A stretch of 64,000 nucleotides of DNA. It comes from Bradyrhizobium sp. (lineage in GTDB: Bacteria > Pseudomonadota > Alphaproteobacteria > Rhizobiales > Xanthobacteraceae). Both the position numbers and the translations under genes were made by a program. The stretch lies in assembly GCA_052389815.1 (NCBI GenBank), contig JBQTHN010000005.1, positions 112,978-176,977 on the forward strand, in the 5' to 3' direction. A model generated the notes under the pieces. The model was not told the DNA's origin and ran no database searches. It worked only from the letters and a program-made list of their open reading frames with translations. Numbering within the stretch: position 1 is the first letter of the stretch; the number at the start of each line of letters is the position of its first letter. This document shows, in pieces, positions 3,626 to 36,628 of this stretch.

Positions 3626-4299
3626 AACTCCTTGGACCAGTTGATAGCGTTGACGTAGATGCCAAGGGGGTTTTTGCGCAGCCGATCGATGTCGCGCGGC
3701 GGTTCTACGACAACGCTGACGATGGCACTCCACCGCTCGGTGGCGGCAAGCTGACCATTCTCGTAGCGGCGTTCGATCCAGGCGATGCGGAAGCTCTCAG
3801 GCGAAGCCCTGATAACGCTGGATAGTTCGACGGCGACCTGGATCTTCCCGACTTTTGTGAACGGGTCGCTGTTGCGGGCGTAGTCGTTCAGCGCGGCGGC
3901 GCCGCGATCGGTCGTGAAATCGTACGCTCGAAGCCAATCTTCACGTAGCACGATCGCGTCCATGGGGAGGGCGCGGACATGCTCGATGAAGCGGGCGAGA
4001 TGGAAGGCGATTTGAGGGTCGGTCGCCTTATATGTCGAGGTTGCCGGCGCGACCATCTTTGCTTCGCCGAGGCGGTCGACTTCAACAACCCACGGCGTAA
4101 TTGATCCCTGTGCCGACTGCCAGACGAGAGCAGCTGCAAAGCCAGCAGAGAGGAACAGACAACCAAACGCCATCAGGCGCCAATTCCCGGCCTGGACACG
4201 CGCCGAGCCGATCCGATCATCCCAAACCTGCGCGGCTTTTTGGTAAGGCGTAACCGGCTGAGGTGTGCGGCCATAGTGAACGGCGGATCGTTTGAACAT
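3622..4299 (-). CDS. trbF: TrbF/VirB8 conjugal transfer protein
   Basis: MFKRSAVHYG..TPYQKAAQVWDDRIG..KNPLGIYVNAINWSKE. Confidence 0.95.
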   Translation of the reverse strand: MFKRSAVHYGRTPQPVTPYQKAAQVWDDRIGSARVQAGNWRLMAFGCLFLSAGFAAALVWQSAQGSITPWVVEVDRLGEAKMVAPATSTYKATDPQIAFHLARFIEHVRALPMDAIVLREDWLRAYDFTTDRGAAALNDYARNSDPFTKVGKIQVAVELSSVIRASPESFRIAWIERRYENGQLAATERWSAIVSVVVEPPRDIDRLRKNPLGIYVNAINWSKEF

Positions 4300-4385
4300 G
4301 CTTGACCTCGACATACGAGAAATCGGACGTGGGCGGTGTTTGCTGCGTTTGAAGAGTTCTGAGAGGTGCGCCGATGGCGCTGATC

Positions 4386-6721: not shown

Positions 6722-9159
6722 TTAGAAGCCTCCAGTTCAGCGAGGTGTGGGATGAGATCGGTCGCCCAAGCGACGTCGCGGGCCTTCAGCCATCCACTCA
6801 CGAAGCTCTCGCGGCTATGTTCAGCCAATACTCGATCGATCAGAGATTGGTCGGCCTTGGAGGAAGCGGCGGTGAAGGCAAGCGCGACCTCGCCAAGTCC
6901 GAGTTCGAACAGGCGATTGCCCCGGCGTGACTGGCAGTAATAGTCTCGCTTGGGAATCGCCCGCGCCAGGATTTCGATTTGCCGGTCATTGAGCCCAAAT
7001 CGCCGGTAGATCGTCATGATCTGCGGCTCGATAGCGCGATCGTTGGGCAGCAGGATCCGGGTCGGGCAACTCTCGATGATAGCAGGCGCGATTGCTGACC
7101 CATCGATATCTACAAGCGATTGGGTCGCAAACACGACCGACGCATTCTTCTTGCGAAGCGTCTTCAGCCATTCACGGAGCTTGCCGGCAAAGTCCGCATC
7201 ATCAAGCGCGAGCCAACCCTCGTCGATGATGAGCAGCGTTGGGCGCCCGTCGAAACGGCTCTCGATGCGGTGGAACAGATAAGCCAGGACGGCCGGCGCG
7301 ACGGCAGTTCCGATCAATCCGTCGGTCTCAAAAACCTGGACCGATGAGCTACCGAGGTGCTCATTCTCGGCATCGAGCAAGCGGTCATAGGGACCGCCAA
7401 GGCAATAGGGCTGGAGCGCTCGCTTCAGGATATTCGATTGGAGGAGGACCGAGAGACCTGTGAGGGTCCGCTCCTGACGAGGAGCCGATGCCAACGAGGT
7501 CAGCGCAGTCCAGACATGATCCTTGGTCTCTGGGGTGACGTCGATCTTTTCTCGCGACAGGATCGAGGCGACCCATTCTGCCGCCCATCCACGCTCCGCG
7601 ACCTCATCGATCCCCGCAAGTGGCTGCAGGGACACAAATTCATCCGTCTCTCCCGCGACCGCACCGCCGAGGTCATGCCAGTCCCCGTCCATGGCCAATG
7701 CCGCCGCGCGCATCGACCGGCCGAAATCGAAGGCAAAGACCTGTGCGTCTGGATAGCGGCGGAACTGCAGGGCCATCAACGCCAGGAGTACCGACTTGCC
7801 CGCCCCGGTCGGGCCAACAACGAGGGTATGCCCTACATCGCCAAGGTGGAGCGAGAACCGAAACGGCGTGGACCCTTCCGTCTTGGCAAAGAACAGCGGG
7901 GGTGCCTTGAGGTGATGGTCCCTCACCTCGCCCGCCCAAACCGCCGACAAGGGGATCATATGGGCGAGGTTGAATGTCGAGATCGGCGGCTGGCGGACGT
8001 TGGCGTAAACGTGGCCCGGCAGGCTGCCGAGCCAGGCCTCGACCGCATTCACAGTCTCGATCATGCAGGTGAAATCACGCCCCTGGATGACCTTTTCCAC
8101 TAGGCGCAGCTTTTCGTCGGCAGCTCGGGGATCTCCGTCCCAGACCGTGACAGTCGCCGTAACAAAGGCTTCCCCGATTTGATCGGTGCCTAGTTCCTGC
8201 AGGGCCGCATCGGCATCGATCGCCTTGTTGTGGGCGTCGGTATCAAGAAGGGCCGATGCCTCGTTGGTCATCACCTCCTTCAGGATCGCAGCGATCGACT
8301 TGCGTTTGGCAAACCATTGGCGCCGGATTTTTGTCGCGAGCTTCACGGCGTCGTTCCGGTCGAGCATGAGCGCCCGCGTCGACCAGCGATAAGAAAATGC
8401 CAGACGGTTCAGGTCATCAAGAATCCCAGGCACGGTCGCGGTCGGAAATCCGACGACTGTCAGCACCCGCAGATGGGCCGCTCCCAGCATCGGCTCAAGA
8501 CCGCCCGTCAGCGGTTGATCGGCAAGCAGCGCGTCGAGATACATGGGTATTTCGGGGACACGAACCCGATGGCGCCTGGTCGAGATCGTTGAGTGCAGAT
8601 AGGTCAACGTTTCCTGATCATCGAGCCAGCCACATTCCGGCATGAAGCTTTCAATGAGTTGCAGGACACGGTTGGTCCGATCGACAAAACCGGCCAGCGC
8701 CTCCCGCGCGTCTGCACCGAAGGTCCGGTTGCTGCCCTCGTAAAGCAGCCGCTCGGCCAGGGCCGCTCCTTCGGCAGGCGGCAGATAAACCAAAGTCAGG
8801 TAGTAGCTGGACTCGTAATGGGCGCTGGCCTCCTCGAACTGCGCCCTGCGCTCGGCGTCGACCAGGGCGGACGCCACATCCGGGAACGTGTTCGGAGGGT
8901 AGGCTCCCGCGGCATGCCGTTGTCCCTCGACAAACAGAGCCCAGCCGGATCCGAGGCGACGCAGGGCATTGTTCAGGCGCCCGGCGACGGCGACGAGTTC
9001 GGCCGGCACAGCGCTGTCGAGATCCGGTCCTCGAAACTTCGCCGTCCGCTGAAAGGAGCCGTCCTTGTTCAGGACAATGCCCTCGTCGACAAGAGCAGCC
9101 CACGGCAGGAAGTCCGCCAGGCGCACATTCGAGGAACGGTATTCGGCAAGATTCATCAT
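6718..9159 (-). CDS. trbE: TrbE/VirB4 ATPase
   Basis: MMNLAEYR..LADFLPWAALV; Walker A GPTGAGKS, Walker B IIDEGW, FATQS. Confidence 0.96.
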   Translation of the reverse strand: MMNLAEYRSSNVRLADFLPWAALVDEGIVLNKDGSFQRTAKFRGPDLDSAVPAELVAVAGRLNNALRRLGSGWALFVEGQRHAAGAYPPNTFPDVASALVDAERRAQFEEASAHYESSYYLTLVYLPPAEGAALAERLLYEGSNRTFGADAREALAGFVDRTNRVLQLIESFMPECGWLDDQETLTYLHSTISTRRHRVRVPEIPMYLDALLADQPLTGGLEPMLGAAHLRVLTVVGFPTATVPGILDDLNRLAFSYRWSTRALMLDRNDAVKLATKIRRQWFAKRKSIAAILKEVMTNEASALLDTDAHNKAIDADAALQELGTDQIGEAFVTATVTVWDGDPRAADEKLRLVEKVIQGRDFTCMIETVNAVEAWLGSLPGHVYANVRQPPISTFNLAHMIPLSAVWAGEVRDHHLKAPPLFFAKTEGSTPFRFSLHLGDVGHTLVVGPTGAGKSVLLALMALQFRRYPDAQVFAFDFGRSMRAAALAMDGDWHDLGGAVAGETDEFVSLQPLAGIDEVAERGWAAEWVASILSREKIDVTPETKDHVWTALTSLASAPRQERTLTGLSVLLQSNILKRALQPYCLGGPYDRLLDAENEHLGSSSVQVFETDGLIGTAVAPAVLAYLFHRIESRFDGRPTLLIIDEGWLALDDADFAGKLREWLKTLRKKNASVVFATQSLVDIDGSAIAPAIIESCPTRILLPNDRAIEPQIMTIYRRFGLNDRQIEILARAIPKRDYYCQSRRGNRLFELGLGEVALAFTAASSKADQSLIDRVLAEHSRESFVSGWLKARDVAWATDLIPHLAELEASK

Positions 9160-13647: not shown

Positions 13648-15624
13648 CTAGAGATCCATCGGATCGTCGGGGTCGATGGTGACGGAACGTGCGATGCCCT
13701 GCATCGAACGGCTCAGAGCCCTCGCCTGCACGGCATCGGCGTCACCATCATCCGGCGCGGCATCGAACTCGTTCTCAGCCAGCGGTACCCCAATGACGAC
13801 ATCCTCGTGTTGCGGCAGTTCGGGCTCACGGCGAATGCCACCGTTAGGATCACGGGACCTCCGCGTCACCTTCGCGAGGAGTTCGGCAGAGGGCGGGATT
13901 TGCGGACGGCCTGACCAATCGTCTGCCTGCGCGACCAGGGCGACCGGATTGGCGCGGGATGGATTCAAGACCCGGCGCTTTAGCTGCGTATCCTCATAGT
14001 ATCGGACCTTGCTGGCGCGCACGGGGTGCACCCCCGAGACCATTACAATCGCCTCGTTAGGTGAGAGCTGCATGACTTCCCCCGGTGTAAGCAGCGGCCG
14101 CGATGTTTCCTGGCGGCTGACCATGAGGTGCCCAAGCCAAGGGCTTAAGCGATGCCCGGCATAGTTCTTCATCGCGCGCATCTCGGTCGCGGTTCCAAGG
14201 GCGTCCGACACGCGTTTGGCGGTGCGCTCATCGTTGGTCGAAAAAGCGACCCGGATGTGGCAGTTGTCGAGGATAGCGTGGTTCGGCCCGTAGGCGCGTT
14301 CGAGCTGGTTCAGGCTCTGGGTGATCAGAAAGCTGCGAATGCCATAGCCTGCCATGAAGGCAAGCTGGCTCTCAAAAAAATCCAACCGTCCGAGCGCTGC
14401 AAACTCGTCGAGCATCAGAAGCAGCTTCTGTCGTCGCCGATCGGTGTCCAGGCTCTCGGTCAATCGCCGTCCGATCTGATTAAGCACAAGCCGCATCAGG
14501 GGTTTTGTGCGGGCGATGTCGGATGGCGGGACGACAAGAAAGAGCGAGATGGGCCGGGGTCCGTCAACGAGATCGCGGATGCGCCAGTCGCTCCGTCCCG
14601 TGACCTTGGCGACGACGGGATCGCGATAGAGCCCCAGGAAACTCATCGTGGTTGACAAAACACCTGAGCGTTCATTCTCGCTCTTGTTGAGGAGCTCGCG
14701 CGATGCCGAAGCCACCACGGGATGAACGCGCTCTCCGAGGTGCGGCGTCGCCAACATCGCATTCAGCGTCGTCTCGATCGGGCGTGACGGGTCAGACAGG
14801 AAGTTGGCGACGCCGGCGAGCGTCTTGTCGGCTTCAGCGTAAAGGACATGCAAAATCGCGCCAACCAGCAAAGAATGGCTGGTCTTCTCCCAATGATTGC
14901 GGCGCTCGAGCGCGCCTTCGGGATCGACGAGGATGTCTGCGATATTTTGGGCGTCCCGTACCTCACAGTCGCCTTTGCGGATCTCGAGGAGAGGGTTATA
15001 GGCCGCGCTTGCCTGGTTGGTGGGGTCGAACAGAAGCACGGGCCCAAAGCGCGCGCGCCAGCCCGAGGTGAGCTGGAAATTCTCGCCCTTGATGTCGTGA
15101 ACGATGGTGGAGTTCGGCCAAGTAAGAAGAGTCGGAATGACCAAGCCGACGCCCTTACCCGAACGGGTAGGAGCAAAGCAAAGGACATGCTCAGGGCCGT
15201 CGTGCCGGAGATATCGGCCATCAAAGCGGCCGAGCACGACGCCGTCGGTCCCCAGAAGGCCCGCCCGCCTGACCTCACGTGCGTCGGCCCAGCGCGCCGA
15301 GCCGTATGTGGTCACCTGCTGAGCTTCCTTTGCCCGCCAGACCGACAGCATGATCGCGATGCCGATAGCGGCGAACCCGCCGCTTGCGGCGATGCAGGCC
15401 CCCTCGATGAATATTTTTGGCGCGTAGGCGTCGAACTGGAACCACCAGATGAAGAAAGCAAGCGGCTGATAGATCGGCCAGCGCCCGACCATGAACCAGG
15501 CAGGTCCGAGCTGCGGTTGGTAGGCGAGACGCCAGGCCGTCCACTCGGTCGCCGTCCAAACAAAGGCGAGCACGACGATCGAGACAAGGAACAGCTGCCC
15601 CCAGAGTATCTTGGTCGCGGACAT
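13648..15624 (-). CDS. traG: TraG/VirD4 type IV coupling protein
   Basis: MSATKILWGQ; APTRSGKGVG, HDIKGEN, LLMLDEF motifs. Confidence 0.95.
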   Translation of the reverse strand: MSATKILWGQLFLVSIVVLAFVWTATEWTAWRLAYQPQLGPAWFMVGRWPIYQPLAFFIWWFQFDAYAPKIFIEGACIAASGGFAAIGIAIMLSVWRAKEAQQVTTYGSARWADAREVRRAGLLGTDGVVLGRFDGRYLRHDGPEHVLCFAPTRSGKGVGLVIPTLLTWPNSTIVHDIKGENFQLTSGWRARFGPVLLFDPTNQASAAYNPLLEIRKGDCEVRDAQNIADILVDPEGALERRNHWEKTSHSLLVGAILHVLYAEADKTLAGVANFLSDPSRPIETTLNAMLATPHLGERVHPVVASASRELLNKSENERSGVLSTTMSFLGLYRDPVVAKVTGRSDWRIRDLVDGPRPISLFLVVPPSDIARTKPLMRLVLNQIGRRLTESLDTDRRRQKLLLMLDEFAALGRLDFFESQLAFMAGYGIRSFLITQSLNQLERAYGPNHAILDNCHIRVAFSTNDERTAKRVSDALGTATEMRAMKNYAGHRLSPWLGHLMVSRQETSRPLLTPGEVMQLSPNEAIVMVSGVHPVRASKVRYYEDTQLKRRVLNPSRANPVALVAQADDWSGRPQIPPSAELLAKVTRRSRDPNGGIRREPELPQHEDVVIGVPLAENEFDAAPDDGDADAVQARALSRSMQGIARSVTIDPDDPMDL

Positions 15625-15713
15625 AGGCCCAGAAGCGCTCGCCCTGTGCACCCACGCAACGACCATATCTCTGGTGTCGCGGTCGCGCGCGCCGCAGCGC
15701 AGAGATCGGCGGG

Positions 15714-17441
15714 TCAGAGGGAAAGATCGCGCTTGCGTCCAAAGCTCCAGTCGACGCCGCCGGGACCGGCGATGCCGCTTACTTGCCTGCCAAGTTCGCG
15801 CTCAAGGGACGGTATCCATGGTACAAGCTGGAAGCCCAGGCCATTGTCGATCATGGCAAAGCGGCCGGAGGCAAGCGACAGCCGTCGGCGATAAATCCCC
15901 GAAATGGGCTCGCCTGCCTCGGCGGGCATATGCGCCAGCCCCGTTTCTTCAGCCAAACGCTCACCCGCTGAATCGAGCTCGCGGGTACGCAGGGTACTGA
16001 TAAGATTGCGGCCGATGATGACCTTGTCTCCGTCCCGGCGCACGAGGCCCCGTTCCGCCAGCGCATCAATCCGACGATCAAGCGCGCGGCGGACCTCGGC
16101 ACCGAAACCGGCTCGCGAGAGATCGGCAGGTTCGCGGGCAACGAGGCGCCGATCGAGCCAGGTCGCCCCTTCGGCCACTACCTGTTGGTCGAGGTTGAGG
16201 TCGGAGCGGACGGCAAGCGCGATCCGCGGCCGGCCCCTCGCATCCTCAAAACGACGGAGCTCCACAATGCCCCCGATCGGACCGTCGCCGGCTGTATCGA
16301 TGTCGGGGAGCTTCAGATGATGCACACGCCCGTCGATCCCGTCCACCACGGCAAACGCTGTTCCCCTTAACTCGTCATCCAGCCCGCGGGCGATGAGACG
16401 GCCGATCACGGGTCCGCCATGGCCTTCGCCCTCGATCGCCCAGGACGACGGCGCGCGAGATGTACCATCCCTGGCCAGGCTCCTGTGCAGCCGCTTGATG
16501 ATATCGCCGCGTTCCCCAAGTGCGCGCAAGCGCTGTTCGGCATCCGGCGCCAGAACCCAGCGCGCGGGCCCGGCCGGCTCAGCGAGTCCGAGCCGCTCAA
16601 GGGTCCGCATCCGACCAATCCGGATCTCCCGCAGCGGATCGCGCCCCGCGTCACGTTCGGGGCGAAGATCGACCACCCCTTCTGCCCTGCCCGCTTCCCG
16701 GGCAAGCACCCGATCGAGCCGCGTCCAGCGTTCGCTCGTGACCTCTGCCTCGAGACCGCGCCGCATCTCAAGCTCTGATCGCGGGCCGAGCTCACGGGTC
16801 ACGAGGTCACCTGCGCGCGCCCGAAAGCCGGACCCGATGTAGTCCCGGCTGATGACAAGGTCGGAACCGTCGTCCGCGCGGCCGCGCATAAGAATGTGGA
16901 TGTGAGGATGCTCGGTGTTCCAGTGATCGACGGCGACCCAGTCGAGCCGCGTGCCGAGATCGCGCGAGGCCTGATCCATGAGCTCGCGAGTAAAGCTCCG
17001 CAGGCTCTCTAGTTCGGCGGCATCATCCGGCGAGACGATGAACCGGAAATGATGCCGGTCGCCATCGCAGCGTTCCGCGAAAGCCCGGCCGTCTGCATCA
17101 TCCCCGGCAGCATCGAAGAGTTTGCCGGGCGATCCATCGCGCGCGACACCGTCCCGTTTGAGATAACCGATATGAGCCCGCAGTGCGCCAGGCGACCGCG
17201 TCCGGCGTACGACACGTGCCTTGACCATGGCGCCCCGGGCGCGGTTGTTGAGGAGCCGTGCCGCGGCAACGCTCGCCGCACGGCCGCGCCCGAAGGACCC
17301 ACTCCTAGTAACTCCGCCGTGTGAGAGACCGCCTGCCTTCTGCGCGGCTCTGAGGGCCTGCGCGAGAAACGATTTTGCCTTGGGCGCGCGCGTCGAACGG
17401 ATACGGCCTGGACGGATGCGGAAATCGTCGTTGCGGCTCAT
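15714..17441 (-). CDS. rlxS: MOBP/VirD2-like relaxase with DUF3363 C-terminus (RlxS-like)
   Basis: MSRNDDFRIRPGRI; catalytic Tyr region AHIGYLKRDG; HHFRFIVSPDD; HUH motif DHWNTEHPHIH. Confidence 0.92.
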   Translation of the reverse strand: MSRNDDFRIRPGRIRSTRAPKAKSFLAQALRAAQKAGGLSHGGVTRSGSFGRGRAASVAAARLLNNRARGAMVKARVVRRTRSPGALRAHIGYLKRDGVARDGSPGKLFDAAGDDADGRAFAERCDGDRHHFRFIVSPDDAAELESLRSFTRELMDQASRDLGTRLDWVAVDHWNTEHPHIHILMRGRADDGSDLVISRDYIGSGFRARAGDLVTRELGPRSELEMRRGLEAEVTSERWTRLDRVLAREAGRAEGVVDLRPERDAGRDPLREIRIGRMRTLERLGLAEPAGPARWVLAPDAEQRLRALGERGDIIKRLHRSLARDGTSRAPSSWAIEGEGHGGPVIGRLIARGLDDELRGTAFAVVDGIDGRVHHLKLPDIDTAGDGPIGGIVELRRFEDARGRPRIALAVRSDLNLDQQVVAEGATWLDRRLVAREPADLSRAGFGAEVRRALDRRIDALAERGLVRRDGDKVIIGRNLISTLRTRELDSAGERLAEETGLAHMPAEAGEPISGIYRRRLSLASGRFAMIDNGLGFQLVPWIPSLERELGRQVSGIAGPGGVDWSFGRKRDLSL

Positions 17442-17568
17442 CTTGCCCGCCGCAAGGTGTCGAAAACCGAGCAAGAACAGCGCCATGGCGAAACTCGCAA
17501 GTTGCGCCGGTCCTTCGCAATGTTCGGAGCATGATTGAGATTGCTGACATTTCCCAACCGACCGACCG

Positions 17569-17600
17569 GCCGCACCTTGCGGCTTTTATCCTGCCCTCCT
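17569..17600 (+). other. Candidate oriT: hairpin followed by a MOBP-type nic site TATCCTG^C (predicted nick 17593/17594)
   Basis: GCCGCA-CCT-TGCGGC inverted repeat (17569-17583), then TTTTATCCTGCCC matching the IncP-type YATCCTG^Y consensus, about 150 bp upstream of the relaxase start. Confidence 0.75.
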
Positions 17601-17682
17601 CGGTCGCTGGTTCCCAGGGCCCAACTTCCAAGCCAACAGACTGTCGGTACTCGCGGCGATTTGCGACAAAATGCAGTTCGGG

Positions 17683-18045
17683 TCATTGCGGTGGATCCTC
17701 CAATAGCGCCTGCCCGAAACGTCGGCTGGTGGCCGATTCATTGCGAAAGAGCCGCCGCGACTTGGCAGTTGACTTGCGAAGCGCCCCGCTTTTGCGAGCG
17801 AAGCGAGCGCTTGCGATAGCGATCGTTACCCGAAGGGCCGAGACACCCGTAGGGTGGCTCGGTGAGGAGCGAAGCGACGAGTAGAGCGCGGGCCGAAGGC
17901 ATCGCCCGTATGCCATCAGCACGTTGATATCGCACTCCGCCGCGAACGCTTGCCGCGTGAGTGAGGGTCCTTCAGTGGCAAACCCGAAGGTCTTAGCGTC
18001 ATGATCGTATTGCAGCGCCTCGAATGAAAACCGAATGTCCGTCAC
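17683..18045 (-). CDS. Small ORF whose first ~47 codons resemble a microvirus (gokushovirus-type) internal scaffolding protein; remainder probably read-through into oriT-region DNA
   Basis: EGPSLTRQAFAAECDINVLM resembles the recalled VP3 motif (PSLxQQxFxxECDINxI). The GTG start overlaps the slt stop (GTGA). Confidence 0.5.
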   Translation of the reverse strand: MTDIRFSFEALQYDHDAKTFGFATEGPSLTRQAFAAECDINVLMAYGRCLRPALYSSLRSSPSHPTGVSALRVTIAIASARFARKSGALRKSTAKSRRLFRNESATSRRFGQALLEDPPQ

Positions 18046-18767
18046 TGTGCGCCCGCGCGCTCAACAAACAGCGGAGCCTGCCGCGAAGGAACGACGCCGC
18101 TCGCGCCCGAAACATCACGCTCACGCTGCTCGGAGGCGAGCAACGGCGTGACAGCCGCGACGTAAGCCACAGTTTCTGATGGAAGTGCTCGGCCGGTTGC
18201 CAAGTGCTGCTCGTAGCGCAACTGACCCGCATGACACGCTGCCAGGAAACCAGCCGATCCGAAGCGATCATGCTTCTCTTTGAGGTACGCGGCTCCCGCC
18301 AAGATGTTGTCGCGCGGATCGAATGGGTCGAGACCTAGCCCATAGCGGAGGCTGAGTTGTACCCACGTGCCCGGCATGACTTGCATCAACCCCATTGCAC
18401 CGAGGCGAGACGTCGCACGTGCGTTGCCTCCGCTCTCAATCTGCATGACGACGCGGATCCAACGCGCGGGAACACGGAAGCGATCAGACGCTTCTGCGAT
18501 GAAGCCGGCGTATCGATCGAGCGGTTCAATACGCGACGCCAACTGTGCGCACGCCACTGTCCCGAGAAACGTCGAGGCCGCGACCACGCACATGCGCGGC
18601 GTAATCGCCGCAATGAGGCGTGCAATTGCGCGGATCATCTCCTCGCTGGCGATCGATCCCGGCAACTCACGGATATGACCTGCCCGGACGTTCAGATATG
18701 GCCGGGAAGGAGAGCAGAAGGGCCGGCCAAAAGCGGACGAGTGGGAGCAAGTGACGTGCACGATCAC
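18042..18767 (-). CDS. Lytic transglycosylase (SLT domain, msi107-like)
   Basis: VMQIESGG catalytic Glu, GAMGLMQVMPGTW, DPRDNILAG. The AYNAG motif reads ACHAG. Start uncertain. Confidence 0.88.
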   Translation of the reverse strand: MIVHVTCSHSSAFGRPFCSPSRPYLNVRAGHIRELPGSIASEEMIRAIARLIAAITPRMCVVAASTFLGTVACAQLASRIEPLDRYAGFIAEASDRFRVPARWIRVVMQIESGGNARATSRLGAMGLMQVMPGTWVQLSLRYGLGLDPFDPRDNILAGAAYLKEKHDRFGSAGFLAACHAGQLRYEQHLATGRALPSETVAYVAAVTPLLASEQRERDVSGASGVVPSRQAPLFVERAGAQ

Positions 18768-19273
18768 TCCTCGTCGGTCCAAACTGGCACCGCTTTGCCG
18801 ATGACTGCGGATGTGGGTATGGGCCCGAAGTACCGGCTATCGAGCGAGTCGAGCGACTGCCAATTCATGACAAAGAGTTCGCCGTCTCCGATGACGCGGC
18901 ATCCTTGCCAGTCTGGTAGCGGTCGGTTGCGGCCGTCGCGGCTGCGTGCCTGTCCCACTTCAAGACCATCAACGGCGATGGTGAAACCATTTCTGCAAAC
19001 GGTCTGTCCTGGCAAAGCCAAGACCCGCTTGAGCATCGGAACTCGCGAGGGCAAATAGCCATTCAGATCCAGGAATGCCGCGAGTGGATCGGGTGGCTGC
19101 ACGGCGACGAGTTCCGTTACGATCAACTGGCCCACGGGCTCGACACGATAAAGGCCGATTGGAACGCTATTCGAGACGTTCCATATGTAGCGTGGCGCCG
19201 TTCCTCCAATTGAGGAGAGGAGAAGAACCGTTGCTCCAAATGCCGTAAGAATGGTTCCACAACCGCCGCTCAT
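18764..19273 (-). CDS. traF: S26 peptidase, TraF pilin-processing protease
   Basis: WNVSNSVPIGLY, LKRVLALPGQTVCR, SLDSRYFGPIP. Confidence 0.9.
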   Translation of the reverse strand: MSGGCGTILTAFGATVLLLSSIGGTAPRYIWNVSNSVPIGLYRVEPVGQLIVTELVAVQPPDPLAAFLDLNGYLPSRVPMLKRVLALPGQTVCRNGFTIAVDGLEVGQARSRDGRNRPLPDWQGCRVIGDGELFVMNWQSLDSLDSRYFGPIPTSAVIGKAVPVWTDEE

Positions 19274-19734
19274 GGTTCGATCCTCCGACGATGGAGCCAC
19301 GCTTGATGGCGAGAGCGGGTGTATGGGCGAGGTGCTTCATTCACCGACAGGCGGTTGTGAACGTGATGCCAATAATCGGGGGCTGCATCGGAGGGATCGA
19401 TGCCGAGCGCCTCGACCGCATCGATCAATTGCAGCACGCGTTCGACCTTCGGCCAGCCCGTTAGCCTCAGCAAGATCTCGCCGCCGGGATTGATCCAGGG
19501 GACTGTCGAATAACGCTGCCCAGGCGCTACGGCACGCAAGATATCGACGCGGGAGAGAACGGTCCCGAAGTCGTTCGATGTCCAACGTACGAACGCAAAG
19601 ATGCTGCCAGGCGCGAAGGACAAAACGCGGCGGCTGCGATCCACAATCCGCTCGGAAACGGAACGGCCGAACCGTACGCGATTCTCAACGCGCTTTTCGA
19701 GCCACAGAATCTCAACTGTTGTTAGGTCGTTCAC
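19270..19734 (-). CDS. DUF2840 family protein
   Basis: LTTVEILWLEKRVENRVRFG..FAFVRWTSNDFGT..APDYWHHVHNRL. Confidence 0.88.
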   Translation of the reverse strand: MNDLTTVEILWLEKRVENRVRFGRSVSERIVDRSRRVLSFAPGSIFAFVRWTSNDFGTVLSRVDILRAVAPGQRYSTVPWINPGGEILLRLTGWPKVERVLQLIDAVEALGIDPSDAAPDYWHHVHNRLSVNEAPRPYTRSRHQAWLHRRRIEP

Positions 19735-36338: not shown

Positions 36339-36628
36339 TCCTGCATCGTCTATCGCCGACGCCGACGAAATTCCGCTCCCGCCGCATCTTCCGTCAGGGA
36401 TGGAAGCCCGAAGGGTGAAAACCCGGCTCAAGCCGGGTTTTAGCGTCAGCCGACAGCCCGGTCCCGCAGGGAGACGGCAAACCACTGGGCTGCCGATCAG
36501 CAAAGTCTGACGATGAACCTATTGCGCTTTTCTCAAGCCATACGATTCTGCGTGCCCACGAGCATCCGCATGTGGATTTCAGCAACAGGTATCGTCACAG
36601 CGGTTGCCCCTCCAAGCCGATGCCAGAC

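What the first reader, a model, noticed from the sequence alone, without database searches (positions are those of the whole stretch)
17900..18045. Microvirus scaffolding-protein-like ORF in the transfer operon, ~300-450 bp from nic
Seen: a GTG overlapping the slt stop begins MTDIRFSFEALQYDHDAKTFGFATEGPSLTRQAFAAECDINVLM; the resemblance stops at about codon 47, where the structured oriT-side DNA begins. Recalled knowledge: gokushovirus VP3 scaffolds carry PSLxQQxFxxECDINxI. Inference: a fragment of an ssDNA phage was captured next to a HUH-relaxase origin (both replicate by rolling circle). It may be a relic, or a co-opted dominant-negative capsid-assembly decoy expressed with the FseA-controlled operon.
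Basis: partly seen in the sequence, partly recalled or inferred. Interest (0 to 1): 0.68.

Follow-up and report, generated by a model that had tools for sequence, protein, structure and literature searches.

The report
Microvirus scaffold-gene relic beside oriT
About 45 codons of a small single-stranded-DNA phage's scaffolding gene really do sit next to the transfer origin of this conjugative element, but they are decaying leftovers that travel with a neighbouring, strongly conserved folded DNA signal, which is the more interesting feature.

Summary
On the minus strand, a GTG at 18045 overlaps the SLT stop (GTGA). Codons ~14-45 (to ~17911) are homologous to the N-terminus of gokushovirus VP3: 78% identity to a full-length VP3, and 192 tblastn hits that are all Microviridae.

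It is an isolated fragment. No other microvirus gene occurs in the window or in 81 related Bradyrhizobium/Afipia ICE loci.

It behaves as a relic, not a co-opted decoy:
- Only 9 of 32 loci that carry it keep the frame, and there are 13 distinct lesions.
- Most loci have lost it by nested 5' truncations.
- Variable sites are spread 13/15/13 over the codon positions.

It persists because it lies in a ~450-bp cassette that is 88-97% identical between ICEs whose flanking genes are 35-77% identical.

The cassette's core (17808-17918) is a four-hairpin element with strong covariation and no Rfam family. Relatives occur in Pf inoviruses, in IncW R388-type and other plasmids, and once more, weakly, in this window.

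An RP4-type nic (TATCCTG|C, 17593/17594) puts the element on the leading edge of the transferred strand. Strand asymmetry and G-N-A loops favour function as folded ssDNA. A single-strand promoter or complementary-strand priming site is inferred, not shown.

The parts
17911..18045 (-). Relic of the 5' end of a gokushovirus-type VP3 (internal scaffolding protein) gene, 45 codons. Homology is solid for codons ~14-45.
17683..18045 (-). Mechanical 120-aa ORF. The relic's frame stays open through the non-coding element downstream. Codons 46-120 are not protein-coding sequence.
   Evidence: relatives change frame after ~codon 85; GC-rich DNA has few stops
18042..18782 (-). SLT-domain lytic transglycosylase gene (msi107-like). 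Its TGA overlaps the relic's GTG.
17808..17918 (-). Core of a conserved structured element. It has four hairpins (P1-P4) joined by the invariant linkers CGGGCTCTAYTC and GCCCTTCGGGTRACGATC, written in minus-strand orientation. The strand inferred to fold is the + strand.
17744..17924 (.). Block that is 86-98% identical in at least 80 Bradyrhizobium/Afipia ICE and plasmid loci whose relaxase and SLT proteins are only ~50% identical.
17600..18045 (.). Cassette of ~450 bp (relic + block + spacer). It is 88-97% identical between ICEs with divergent flanks.
   Evidence: unitig breaks and ~2x depth
17569..17599 (+). oriT core. Inverted repeat GCCGCAcctTGCGGC (17569-17583), then TTTTATCCTG|CCCTCC, with the predicted nick between 17593 and 17594. 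This makes the + strand the transferred strand, with higher coordinates entering first.
   Evidence: The nic consensus YATCCTG|Y of MOBP/RP4-type relaxases is from established knowledge.
15714..17486 (-). Relaxase gene (RlxS-like; DUF3363 plus a MobA/VirD2 nuclease domain).
13648..15666 (-). TraG-type coupling protein gene.
18764..19300 (-). TraF S26 signal-peptidase-like gene.
19270..19734 (-). DUF2840 gene.
36386..36490 (-). Second, divergent copy of the structured element, in the same orientation. It lies between a thermonuclease gene and an unknown gene followed by a ParB_N-domain gene.

Best explanation
The 45 codons are a non-functional relic of the 5' end of a gokushovirus-like VP3 scaffolding gene. 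In an ancestor of a group of Bradyrhizobium/Afipia ICEs it became joined to the left edge of a conserved structured element. That element lies on the leading edge of the transferred strand, ~215 nt from nic.

The relic has no protein role. It survives because it sits inside a ~450-bp cassette that is kept nearly identical among otherwise divergent ICEs, either by recombination between co-resident elements or by selection on the neighbouring element. Meanwhile it is being eroded by indels and 5' truncations that stop at the element's edge. The 120-aa ORF is an accident of GC-rich DNA.

Shown: homology to VP3, isolation of the fragment, its decay pattern, the cassette-like identity profile, and the covarying structure and wide distribution of the element.

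Inferred: the element works as folded single-stranded DNA, either as an ssDNA promoter or as a priming site for complementary-strand synthesis, in the recipient (sub-claim ~0.5). Also inferred: the transfer went from virus to ICE.
For: Homology to VP3.

Isolated fragment: there is no VP1, VP2, VP4 or VP5 in the window or in 81 ICE loci.

Decay pattern:
- Of 32 loci with the piece, 9 keep the frame, 2 have in-frame deletions and 21 are broken by 13 different lesions.
- These include the window's closest relatives, L012-L017 (TraG 100% and Rlx 96% identical), which have lost the start and carry a 1-nt deletion.
- The remaining ~48 kept loci show nested truncations ending at GCTGATGGCRTAYGGGCG.
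- Variable sites by codon position are 13/15/13, and pN/pS is 0.61.

Cassette: relic 88-93%, block 91-96% and spacer 92-97% identical, against TraF, SLT and Rlx at 35-77%. The block is assembled as a ~2x-depth repeat unitig whose edge is at 17896-17925.

Element structure and distribution:
- Homologous to Pf1/Pf4-type inoviruses at E 1e-9 to 1e-10, and to intergenic sites in many plasmids.
- 13 of 18 pairs have compensatory double changes. 92.9% of cells pair, against 80.3% in shuffles (0/500).

Evidence that the + strand folds:
- A.C versus G.T asymmetry of 12:2 in hairpin P3.
- 215 of 223 loops are G-N-A on the + strand.
- The + strand corresponds to the Pf packaged strand, to the T-strand of R388-type IncW plasmids, and to the T-strand implied by the nic site here.
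Against: - The relic is more conserved at DNA level than the flanking genes. Constraint on it cannot be told apart from hitch-hiking.
- Nine loci keep both the frame and the GTGA overlap that would allow translational coupling to SLT.
- A pN/pS of 0.61 is below 1. It comes from non-independent pairs in 41 codons, and the copies were selected for being intact.
- No expression data could be obtained. The 'RNA' runs hold only contigs, probably from DNA.

For the ssDNA sub-claim:
- No -35/-10 mimic was recognised.
- Fold energies are not better than shuffles.
- One IMG/VR contig (L126) has copies in both orientations.
- The distance from the element to the next gene is variable.
Confidence: 0.75

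Rival explanations
1. The piece encodes an expressed small protein, translationally coupled to SLT. It mimics the conserved N-terminus of VP3 and interferes with microvirus capsid assembly, or has some other new role.
For: - GTGA overlap with the SLT stop, and an intact frame in 9 loci.
- The retained part is the most conserved stretch of VP3.
- The operon upstream would transcribe it.
- pN/pS is below 1.
Against: - 21 of 32 carriers are disrupted by 13 distinct lesions, and most related ICEs lack the piece.
- There is no third-position excess of substitutions.
- The ORF ends in a read-through of a structured non-coding element.
- There is no PADLOC or PDB match.
Confidence: 0.06
2. The VP3-derived DNA has been recruited at DNA level. 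It would act as an accessory part of the leading-edge element or of oriT in this ICE subgroup, for example by adding hairpins or a protein-binding site, so that sequence rather than coding capacity is under selection.
For: - 88-93% identity where the flanks are 35-77%.
- Substitutions are spread evenly over codon positions, as expected for non-coding constraint or neutrality.
- The last ~10 nt (GCTGATGGC) are retained in nearly all loci and can pair into a longer hairpin with the start of the element.
Against: - Large deletions of 27-90 nt and complete loss are tolerated in many complete-looking ICEs.
- Homologues of the element in Pf phages and plasmids have no such extension.
Confidence: 0.14
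3. The neighbouring conserved element acts as RNA, not as ssDNA. It would be a structured leader, a processing or stabilising element, or a small RNA within leading-region transcripts.
For: - In the plasmids, the ICE and contig L126 the element usually lies between genes and is co-oriented with them.
- It has UUCG-like loops in that orientation.
- L126 has copies in both orientations.
Against: - In Pf phages that orientation is antisense to all genes.
- Wobble asymmetry favours the opposite strand, 12:2 in P3.
- Loops vary only at the middle base, giving G-N-A on the opposite strand.
- No Rfam family matches.
Confidence: 0.25
4. The resemblance to VP3 is chance or convergence.
For: The Pfam score is below the gathering cut-off.
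Against: - 192 hits, exclusively to Microviridae VP3.
- 78% identity over 32 aa, E=4e-17.
- 79-80% nucleotide identity over 66-85 nt.
Confidence: 0.01

Closest known systems
Gokushovirinae VP3 internal scaffolding protein (Pfam PF09675 Chlamy_scaf; PHROG 1642)
   Same: Codons 14-45 align with VP3 residues ~25-60, including the motif TEGPSLTRQEFAxECDINxxMA. Identity is 74-79% to metagenomic VP3s.
   Different: - Only ~45 of ~130-170 codons are present.
- The conserved C-terminal half is missing.
- There are no neighbouring VP1, VP2 or VP4 genes.
- It lies in an ICE backbone and decays like a pseudogene.
Frpo/ssi single-stranded DNA promoters of F and IncI1 leading regions (Masai & Arai 1997; PMC11541004, PMC12672017)
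   Same: - It lies in the leading region.
- It sits on the strand that enters as ssDNA, upstream of and co-oriented with establishment genes (ardC, ssb, ParB-like, nuclease genes).
- A leading region can carry more than one copy.
   Different: - It has four short GC-rich hairpins with conserved single-stranded linkers, rather than one long hairpin that mimics -35/-10.
- It has no recognisable sigma-70 hexamers.
- It is found in high-GC alpha- and gammaproteobacterial replicons and in inoviruses.
- Activity is untested.
Complementary (minus)-strand origins of ssDNA phages (M13/f1 RNA-polymerase site; G4-type primase sites) and plasmid ssi signals
   Same: A folded element on the packaged or transferred strand, present both in filamentous phages (Pf) and in conjugative elements. 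d(C-GNA-G) mini-hairpins are a known feature of ssDNA phage origins (own knowledge).
   Different: No sequence relationship to those origins was tested. The Pf minus-strand origin has not been mapped in the papers read.
ICEMlSymR7A-type conjugation module and RP4-type oriT
   Same: - Gene order TraF-SLT(msi107)-oriT-rlxS-traG (PMC8627217).
- MOBP1-type relaxase.
- Inverted repeat followed by ATCCTG|C.
   Different: - RepA-DUF2840 stands in place of rdfS upstream of traF.
- The oriT-side spacer contains the VP3 relic and the structured element. Neither is mentioned in the passages of the one ICEMlSymR7A paper that was term-searched.
Integrated Microviridae prophages
   Same: Microvirus-derived DNA resident in a bacterial genome.
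   Different: This is not a prophage. It is a ~130-bp piece of a single gene.

Membership tests
Microviridae VP3 / Chlamy_scaf (PF09675) | Profile match at or above Pfam's gathering score | tested here: not met
   19.9-23.4 bits against a cut-off of 25. E=7e-5 to 9e-4. Only profile positions 2-37 of 134 are matched.
Microviridae VP3 / Chlamy_scaf (PF09675) | Sequence homology to bona fide VP3 proteins | tested here: met
   78-79% identity over 29-32 aa, and hits only to VP3.
Microviridae VP3 / Chlamy_scaf (PF09675) | Full-length protein (~130-170 aa) with the conserved C-terminal region | tested here: not met
   Similarity ends at codon 45. The rest is a non-coding element.
Microviridae VP3 / Chlamy_scaf (PF09675) | Microvirus genome context (VP1-VP2-VP3-VP4) | tested here: not met
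Microviridae VP3 / Chlamy_scaf (PF09675) | Purifying selection on the protein | tested here: not met
Frpo/ssi ssDNA promoter or priming signal | Located in the leading region, on the transferred strand | tested here: met
   The nic site gives the + strand as T-strand, and the element lies ~215-330 nt 3' of nic. The orientation relative to the leading region is the same in an R388-type plasmid. T-strand assignment rests on the RP4 nic paradigm.
Frpo/ssi ssDNA promoter or priming signal | Conserved secondary structure of the single strand | tested here: met
Frpo/ssi ssDNA promoter or priming signal | Hairpin that mimics -35/-10 promoter hexamers | tested here: inconclusive
   The double-stranded scan found none. 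None were seen by eye in the hairpins. No dedicated ssDNA-promoter search was available.
Frpo/ssi ssDNA promoter or priming signal | Sequence similarity to the known Frpo/ssi sequences | not tested
   The reference sequences were not on hand.
Frpo/ssi ssDNA promoter or priming signal | Transcription or priming from ssDNA but not from dsDNA | not testable with these tools
   Needs in vitro or transconjugant assays.
MOBP (RP4-type) oriT | Inverted repeat 5' of a YATCCTG|Y nic core, next to the relaxase gene | tested here: met
   Window 17569-17599. Conserved in 25 loci, with covarying repeat arms and ATCCTG/ATCTTG variants.
Any Rfam 15 family | Covariance-model match | tested here: not met

The most novel reading that the evidence does not exclude
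The element that the relic abuts is a previously undescribed and widespread ssDNA-active signal. It would be a single-strand promoter or a complementary-strand origin used by high-GC Proteobacteria, shared by Pf inoviruses, IncW R388-type and many other plasmids, and ICEs.

On this reading, the VP3 relic records a past template switch. A nascent microvirus plus strand would have been extended on an incoming ICE T-strand at this initiation site. The polarity fits, because VP3 sense lies on the strand complementary to the T-strand.
Probability: 0.35. Interest if true: 0.75.

Novelty: new variant of a known kind. Interest (0 to 1): 0.45.

Why it matters
The relic alone is a curiosity. It is a rare, well-documented case of microvirus coding DNA fixed in a conjugative-element backbone, and a warning that ORF callers turn it into 120-200-aa 'hypothetical proteins' (297 such entries).

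The neighbouring element matters more. How plasmids other than IncF and IncI express establishment and anti-restriction genes from the incoming single strand, and where complementary-strand synthesis starts, is largely unknown. In R388, ardC must be expressed in the recipient (PMC7213743).

A conserved, covarying, orientation-consistent element upstream of ardC in R388-type plasmids, at the leading edge of these ICEs, and on the packaged strand of Pf phages gives a concrete candidate. It can be tested in laboratory strains.

Tried and rejected
- A word-indexed protein search with the 45-aa piece alone returned only ICE copies. True VP3 relatives came from the exhaustive HMMER scan.
- I looked for the structured element in the microvirus contigs closest to the relic and in a complete blackfly microvirus. 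It is absent. The idea that relic and element arrived together from a microvirus is therefore not supported.
- An exact 39-mer of the block is not in IMG/VR. A degenerate core pattern found 30 viral contigs, mostly of inovirus size. A crude ORF-strand count placed the element antisense to the main coding strand in 23 of 30 (weak evidence).
- Expression could not be assessed. The RNA-labelled runs hold the locus only as contigs with flat depth, probably DNA carry-over.
- Single-sequence folding gave z-scores from -1.4 to +0.2, which is uninformative in 65% GC DNA.
- The promoter scan found nothing. The only 'terminator' it reported is the oriT inverted repeat.
- Rfam, PDB and PADLOC gave nothing.
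- tblastn extensions of VP3 into the block (36-42% over ~90 aa) were judged to be extension artefacts, because the block is homologous to non-coding DNA of Pf phages and plasmids.
- Papers on Pf phages and on R388 ardC do not mention the element. A search for a microvirus scaffolding gene in ICEs found no paper.

Full report
**Observation**

The feature is on the minus strand. A GTG at 18045 opens a 120-codon frame (18045..17683). It shares two bases with the TGA stop of an SLT-domain lytic transglycosylase gene (18782..18042), giving GTGA. The gene order on this strand is:
- DUF2285/RovC-type regulator
- HTH
- RepA
- DUF2840
- TraF (S26 peptidase)
- SLT
- a 555-bp spacer
- relaxase (DUF3363 plus MobA/VirD2 domain)
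- TraG

. This is the ICEMlSymR7A-like conjugation module described for rhizobia (PMC8627217). Bradyrhizobium plasmids and chromosomes have the same arrangement.

**Is the VP3 resemblance real?**

Yes.
- Pfam Chlamy_scaf matches residues 12-45 at E=2e-4 (22 bits, cut-off 25). PHROG 1642 matches at E=5e-6.
- tblastn of the first 54 residues against 50,697 phage genomes gave 192 hits. All are Microviridae, and all lie under VP3/internal scaffolding genes. The best is E=1e-9.
- An exhaustive HMMER scan of 1.84 billion representative proteins found two full-length VP3s, P0140 and P0147. Both lie on microvirus contigs with VP2-VP3-IGR(-VP4-ORF5) order.
- The window ORF is 25/32 identical to P0140 (E=4e-17). 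The consensus of the ICE copies shares a 16-residue exact run, TEGPSLTRQEFAEECD, with P0147.
- Nucleotide identity is 79-80% over 66-85 nt.
- Similarity ends at codon 45 (..NVLMA).

No other microvirus gene is detectable in the 64-kb window or in 81 related loci. This is an isolated ~130-bp fragment.

**What relatives show**

A protein search returned 297 'homologues' of the 120-aa ORF. Downstream of about codon 85 they switch reading frame relative to one another, which is the signature of conserved non-coding DNA.

A scan of one genome per species found 122 loci, of which 80 were kept. Nearly all are Bradyrhizobium or Afipia, and all have the same RepA-DUF2840-TraF-SLT-[spacer]-Rlx-TraG context. 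Only 32 of the 80 carry most of the VP3 piece. Of those 32:
- 9 keep the frame.
- 2 have in-frame deletions (27 and 57 nt).
- 21 are broken by 13 different lesions: 1-, 2- and 4-nt deletions, insertions, a ~90-nt deletion, replacement of the 5' third, or loss of the start.

The window's nearest relatives on the relaxase side (L012-L017; TraG 100%, Rlx 96%) have lost SLT and the start context, and carry a 1-nt deletion.

In the other loci the piece has been removed from its 5' side to different extents. Some retain ..GGAGGAGTGCGATA.., others ..ATTAACGTG.., others only GCTGATGGC. The truncation always stops at the same boundary.

Among the nine intact copies, variable sites fall 13/15/13 on codon positions 1/2/3, and the pooled pN/pS is 0.61. 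This is the behaviour of a pseudogene fragment, not of a maintained decoy protein.

**Why it is still there**

Identity between the window and other ICEs is 88-93% for the relic, 91-96% for the adjacent block and 92-97% for the next ~145 bp. TraF, SLT and the relaxase gene are only 35-77% identical.

The stretch 18045-17600 is therefore a cassette. It is either exchanged or homogenised between ICE backbones, or held by selection on its core.

In public assemblies, short unitigs spanning about 17585-17925 have about twice the depth of their flanks. The unique contig that continues into SLT begins at 17896. This shows that several copies with different flanks coexist in one genome. Several genomes in the survey do carry two or three such loci.

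**The core of the cassette**

The block (about 17744-17924) has no Rfam match. It is, however, homologous to several other sequences:
- A site in Pf1/Pf4-type Pseudomonas inoviruses: 76% identity over ~97 nt, E 1e-9 to 1e-10. It lies at the 3' end of annotated PA0719, just before the ssDNA-binding protein gene.
- A 4-kb contig that carries ssb.
- Intergenic sites in plasmids of Methylocystis, Methylobacterium, Sphingomonas, Roseomonas, Skermanella, Paracoccus, Blastomonas, Aeromonas and Pseudomonas, and in IncW plasmids.

Alignment shows four hairpins (P1-P4) joined by near-invariant linkers.
- RNAalifold recovers P3 and P4, with compensatory changes in 4 of 5 outer P3 pairs.
- With a covariance model (R1) and its alignment of 32 instances, 13 of 18 pairs show double compensatory changes. 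92.9% of cells pair, against 80.3% in shuffles (0/500) and 64% or less when partners are slid. This alignment is fitted to the model, so the numbers lean towards the structure.
- P3 carries an invariant mismatch, C.T in this orientation and A.G on the other strand.

**Which strand, and what for**

On the + strand, an inverted repeat (17569-17583) is followed by TTTTATCCTG|CCCTCC. This is the nic core of RP4-type (MOBP) relaxases, to which RlxS belongs (PMC8627217). The same arrangement recurs in 25 loci, with covarying repeat arms and an ATCTTG variant in other relaxase clades.

By the RP4 paradigm (established knowledge), the + strand is transferred 5'->3' from 17594 upward. The spacer, the element, the relic and then SLT-TraF enter first, and the relaxase gene enters last.

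Four observations point to the + strand as the one that folds:
- **Wobble asymmetry.** Non-Watson-Crick cells in P3 are A.C on the minus-like strand, which means G.T on the + strand, 12 times against 2.
- **Loop variation.** Loops of P1-P4 vary almost only at the middle base. They read T-N-C on the minus-like strand, which is G-N-A on the + strand, in 215 of 223 loops. C-GNA-G mini-hairpins are exceptionally stable in DNA (own knowledge).
- **Pf phages.** The + strand corresponds to the packaged strand of Pf phages, whose genes all lie on that strand.
- **R388-type plasmids.** In an IncW R388-type plasmid, two strong copies lie upstream of ardC and of the gene after ardK. Both are oriented so that the T-strand carries the same strand. 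The establishment sector is the leading region, and ardC must act in the recipient (PMC7213743).

In the plasmids the element lies in intergenic DNA and is co-oriented with typical leading-region genes: ardC-type zincin, ssb, ParB/Srx, DUF932, DUF3560, thermonuclease and radC.

The window has a second, weaker copy at 36386-36490 in the same orientation. It lies between a thermonuclease gene and an unknown gene followed by a ParB_N gene.

The most economical reading is a signal that works on single-stranded DNA. It would be either a single-strand promoter or a primer site for complementary-strand synthesis, the two roles Masai and Arai assigned to Frpo (cited in PMC11541004 and PMC12672017).

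This reading is inferred, not shown, and there are points against it:
- No promoter-like hexamers were recognised.
- Fold energies are unremarkable.
- One IMG/VR contig (L126: methylase, ERF, YqaJ, integrase) has copies in both orientations.

I put the ssDNA reading at about 0.5 and an RNA role at about 0.25.

**How the relic got there**

This cannot be reconstructed. The element is absent from the closest microvirus contigs, so relic and element did not arrive together.

VP3 sense lies on the strand complementary to the T-strand. A direct joining of virion DNA to the T-strand therefore does not fit. Extension of a nascent viral plus strand on an incoming T-strand at an initiation site would fit. 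This is speculation.

**Verdict**

As a relic it is of modest interest. The conserved element it abuts is a good candidate for a new class of ssDNA signal and deserves its own follow-up.

Noticed in passing
window 36386-36490 (-): A second, divergent copy of the structured element (26.6 bits, E about 1e-5), in the same orientation as the first. It lies between a thermonuclease gene (37492-36953) and a 402-aa unknown gene followed by a 712-aa ParB_N-domain gene. The element keeps the same gene company in plasmids.
   Followed up: partly
L130 (pMTY10660_IncW, R388-type) 4201-4349 and 8208-8356: Two strong copies of the element in an IncW plasmid. The first is ~600 nt upstream of ardC, the second upstream of the gene after ardK. 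Both are co-oriented with the leading-region genes.
   Followed up: partly
L083 2990-3097; L085 3991-4098 (Pf phages): In Pf1/Pf4-type inoviruses the element overlaps the annotated 3' end of PA0719. A recent paper describes the PA0719 C-terminus as divergent between phages. This may be an ORF over-extended across a non-coding element, like the 120-aa ORF here.
   Followed up: partly
L126 (IMG/VR contig, 13.5 kb): At least 4 strong and up to 9 element-like copies lie between genes for a DNA methylase, ERF, YqaJ, an integrase and DUF5131. They occur in both orientations, which is not explained by a purely T-strand-specific function.
   Followed up: partly
L047, L082, L024: L047 and L082 carry two tandem copies of the conserved block, ~280-310 bp apart. 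L024 has a ~1.5-kb insertion inside the block.
   Followed up: no
window 17569-17599 and 25 related loci: The nic core is ATCCTG with window-type relaxases and ATCTTG with other relaxase clades. The arms of the preceding inverted repeat covary: GCCGCA/TGCGGC, GCACGCA/TGCGTGC, GCGAAC/GTTCGC.
   Followed up: partly
window 17500-18800: The exact sequence is present in many unrelated metagenomes (lagoon, seawater, lake, bioreactor) and in runs labelled RNA of various organisms. This is the pattern expected of a ubiquitous or reagent-associated Bradyrhizobium/Afipia strain.
   Followed up: no
L012-L017: In the closest relatives of the window's relaxase/TraG module, the SLT gene is missing between TraF and the relic.
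   Followed up: no
protein database: 297 predicted 'hypothetical proteins' of 100-200 aa are translations of the relic plus the non-coding cassette. This is a systematic gene-calling artefact in GC-rich DNA.
   Followed up: yes
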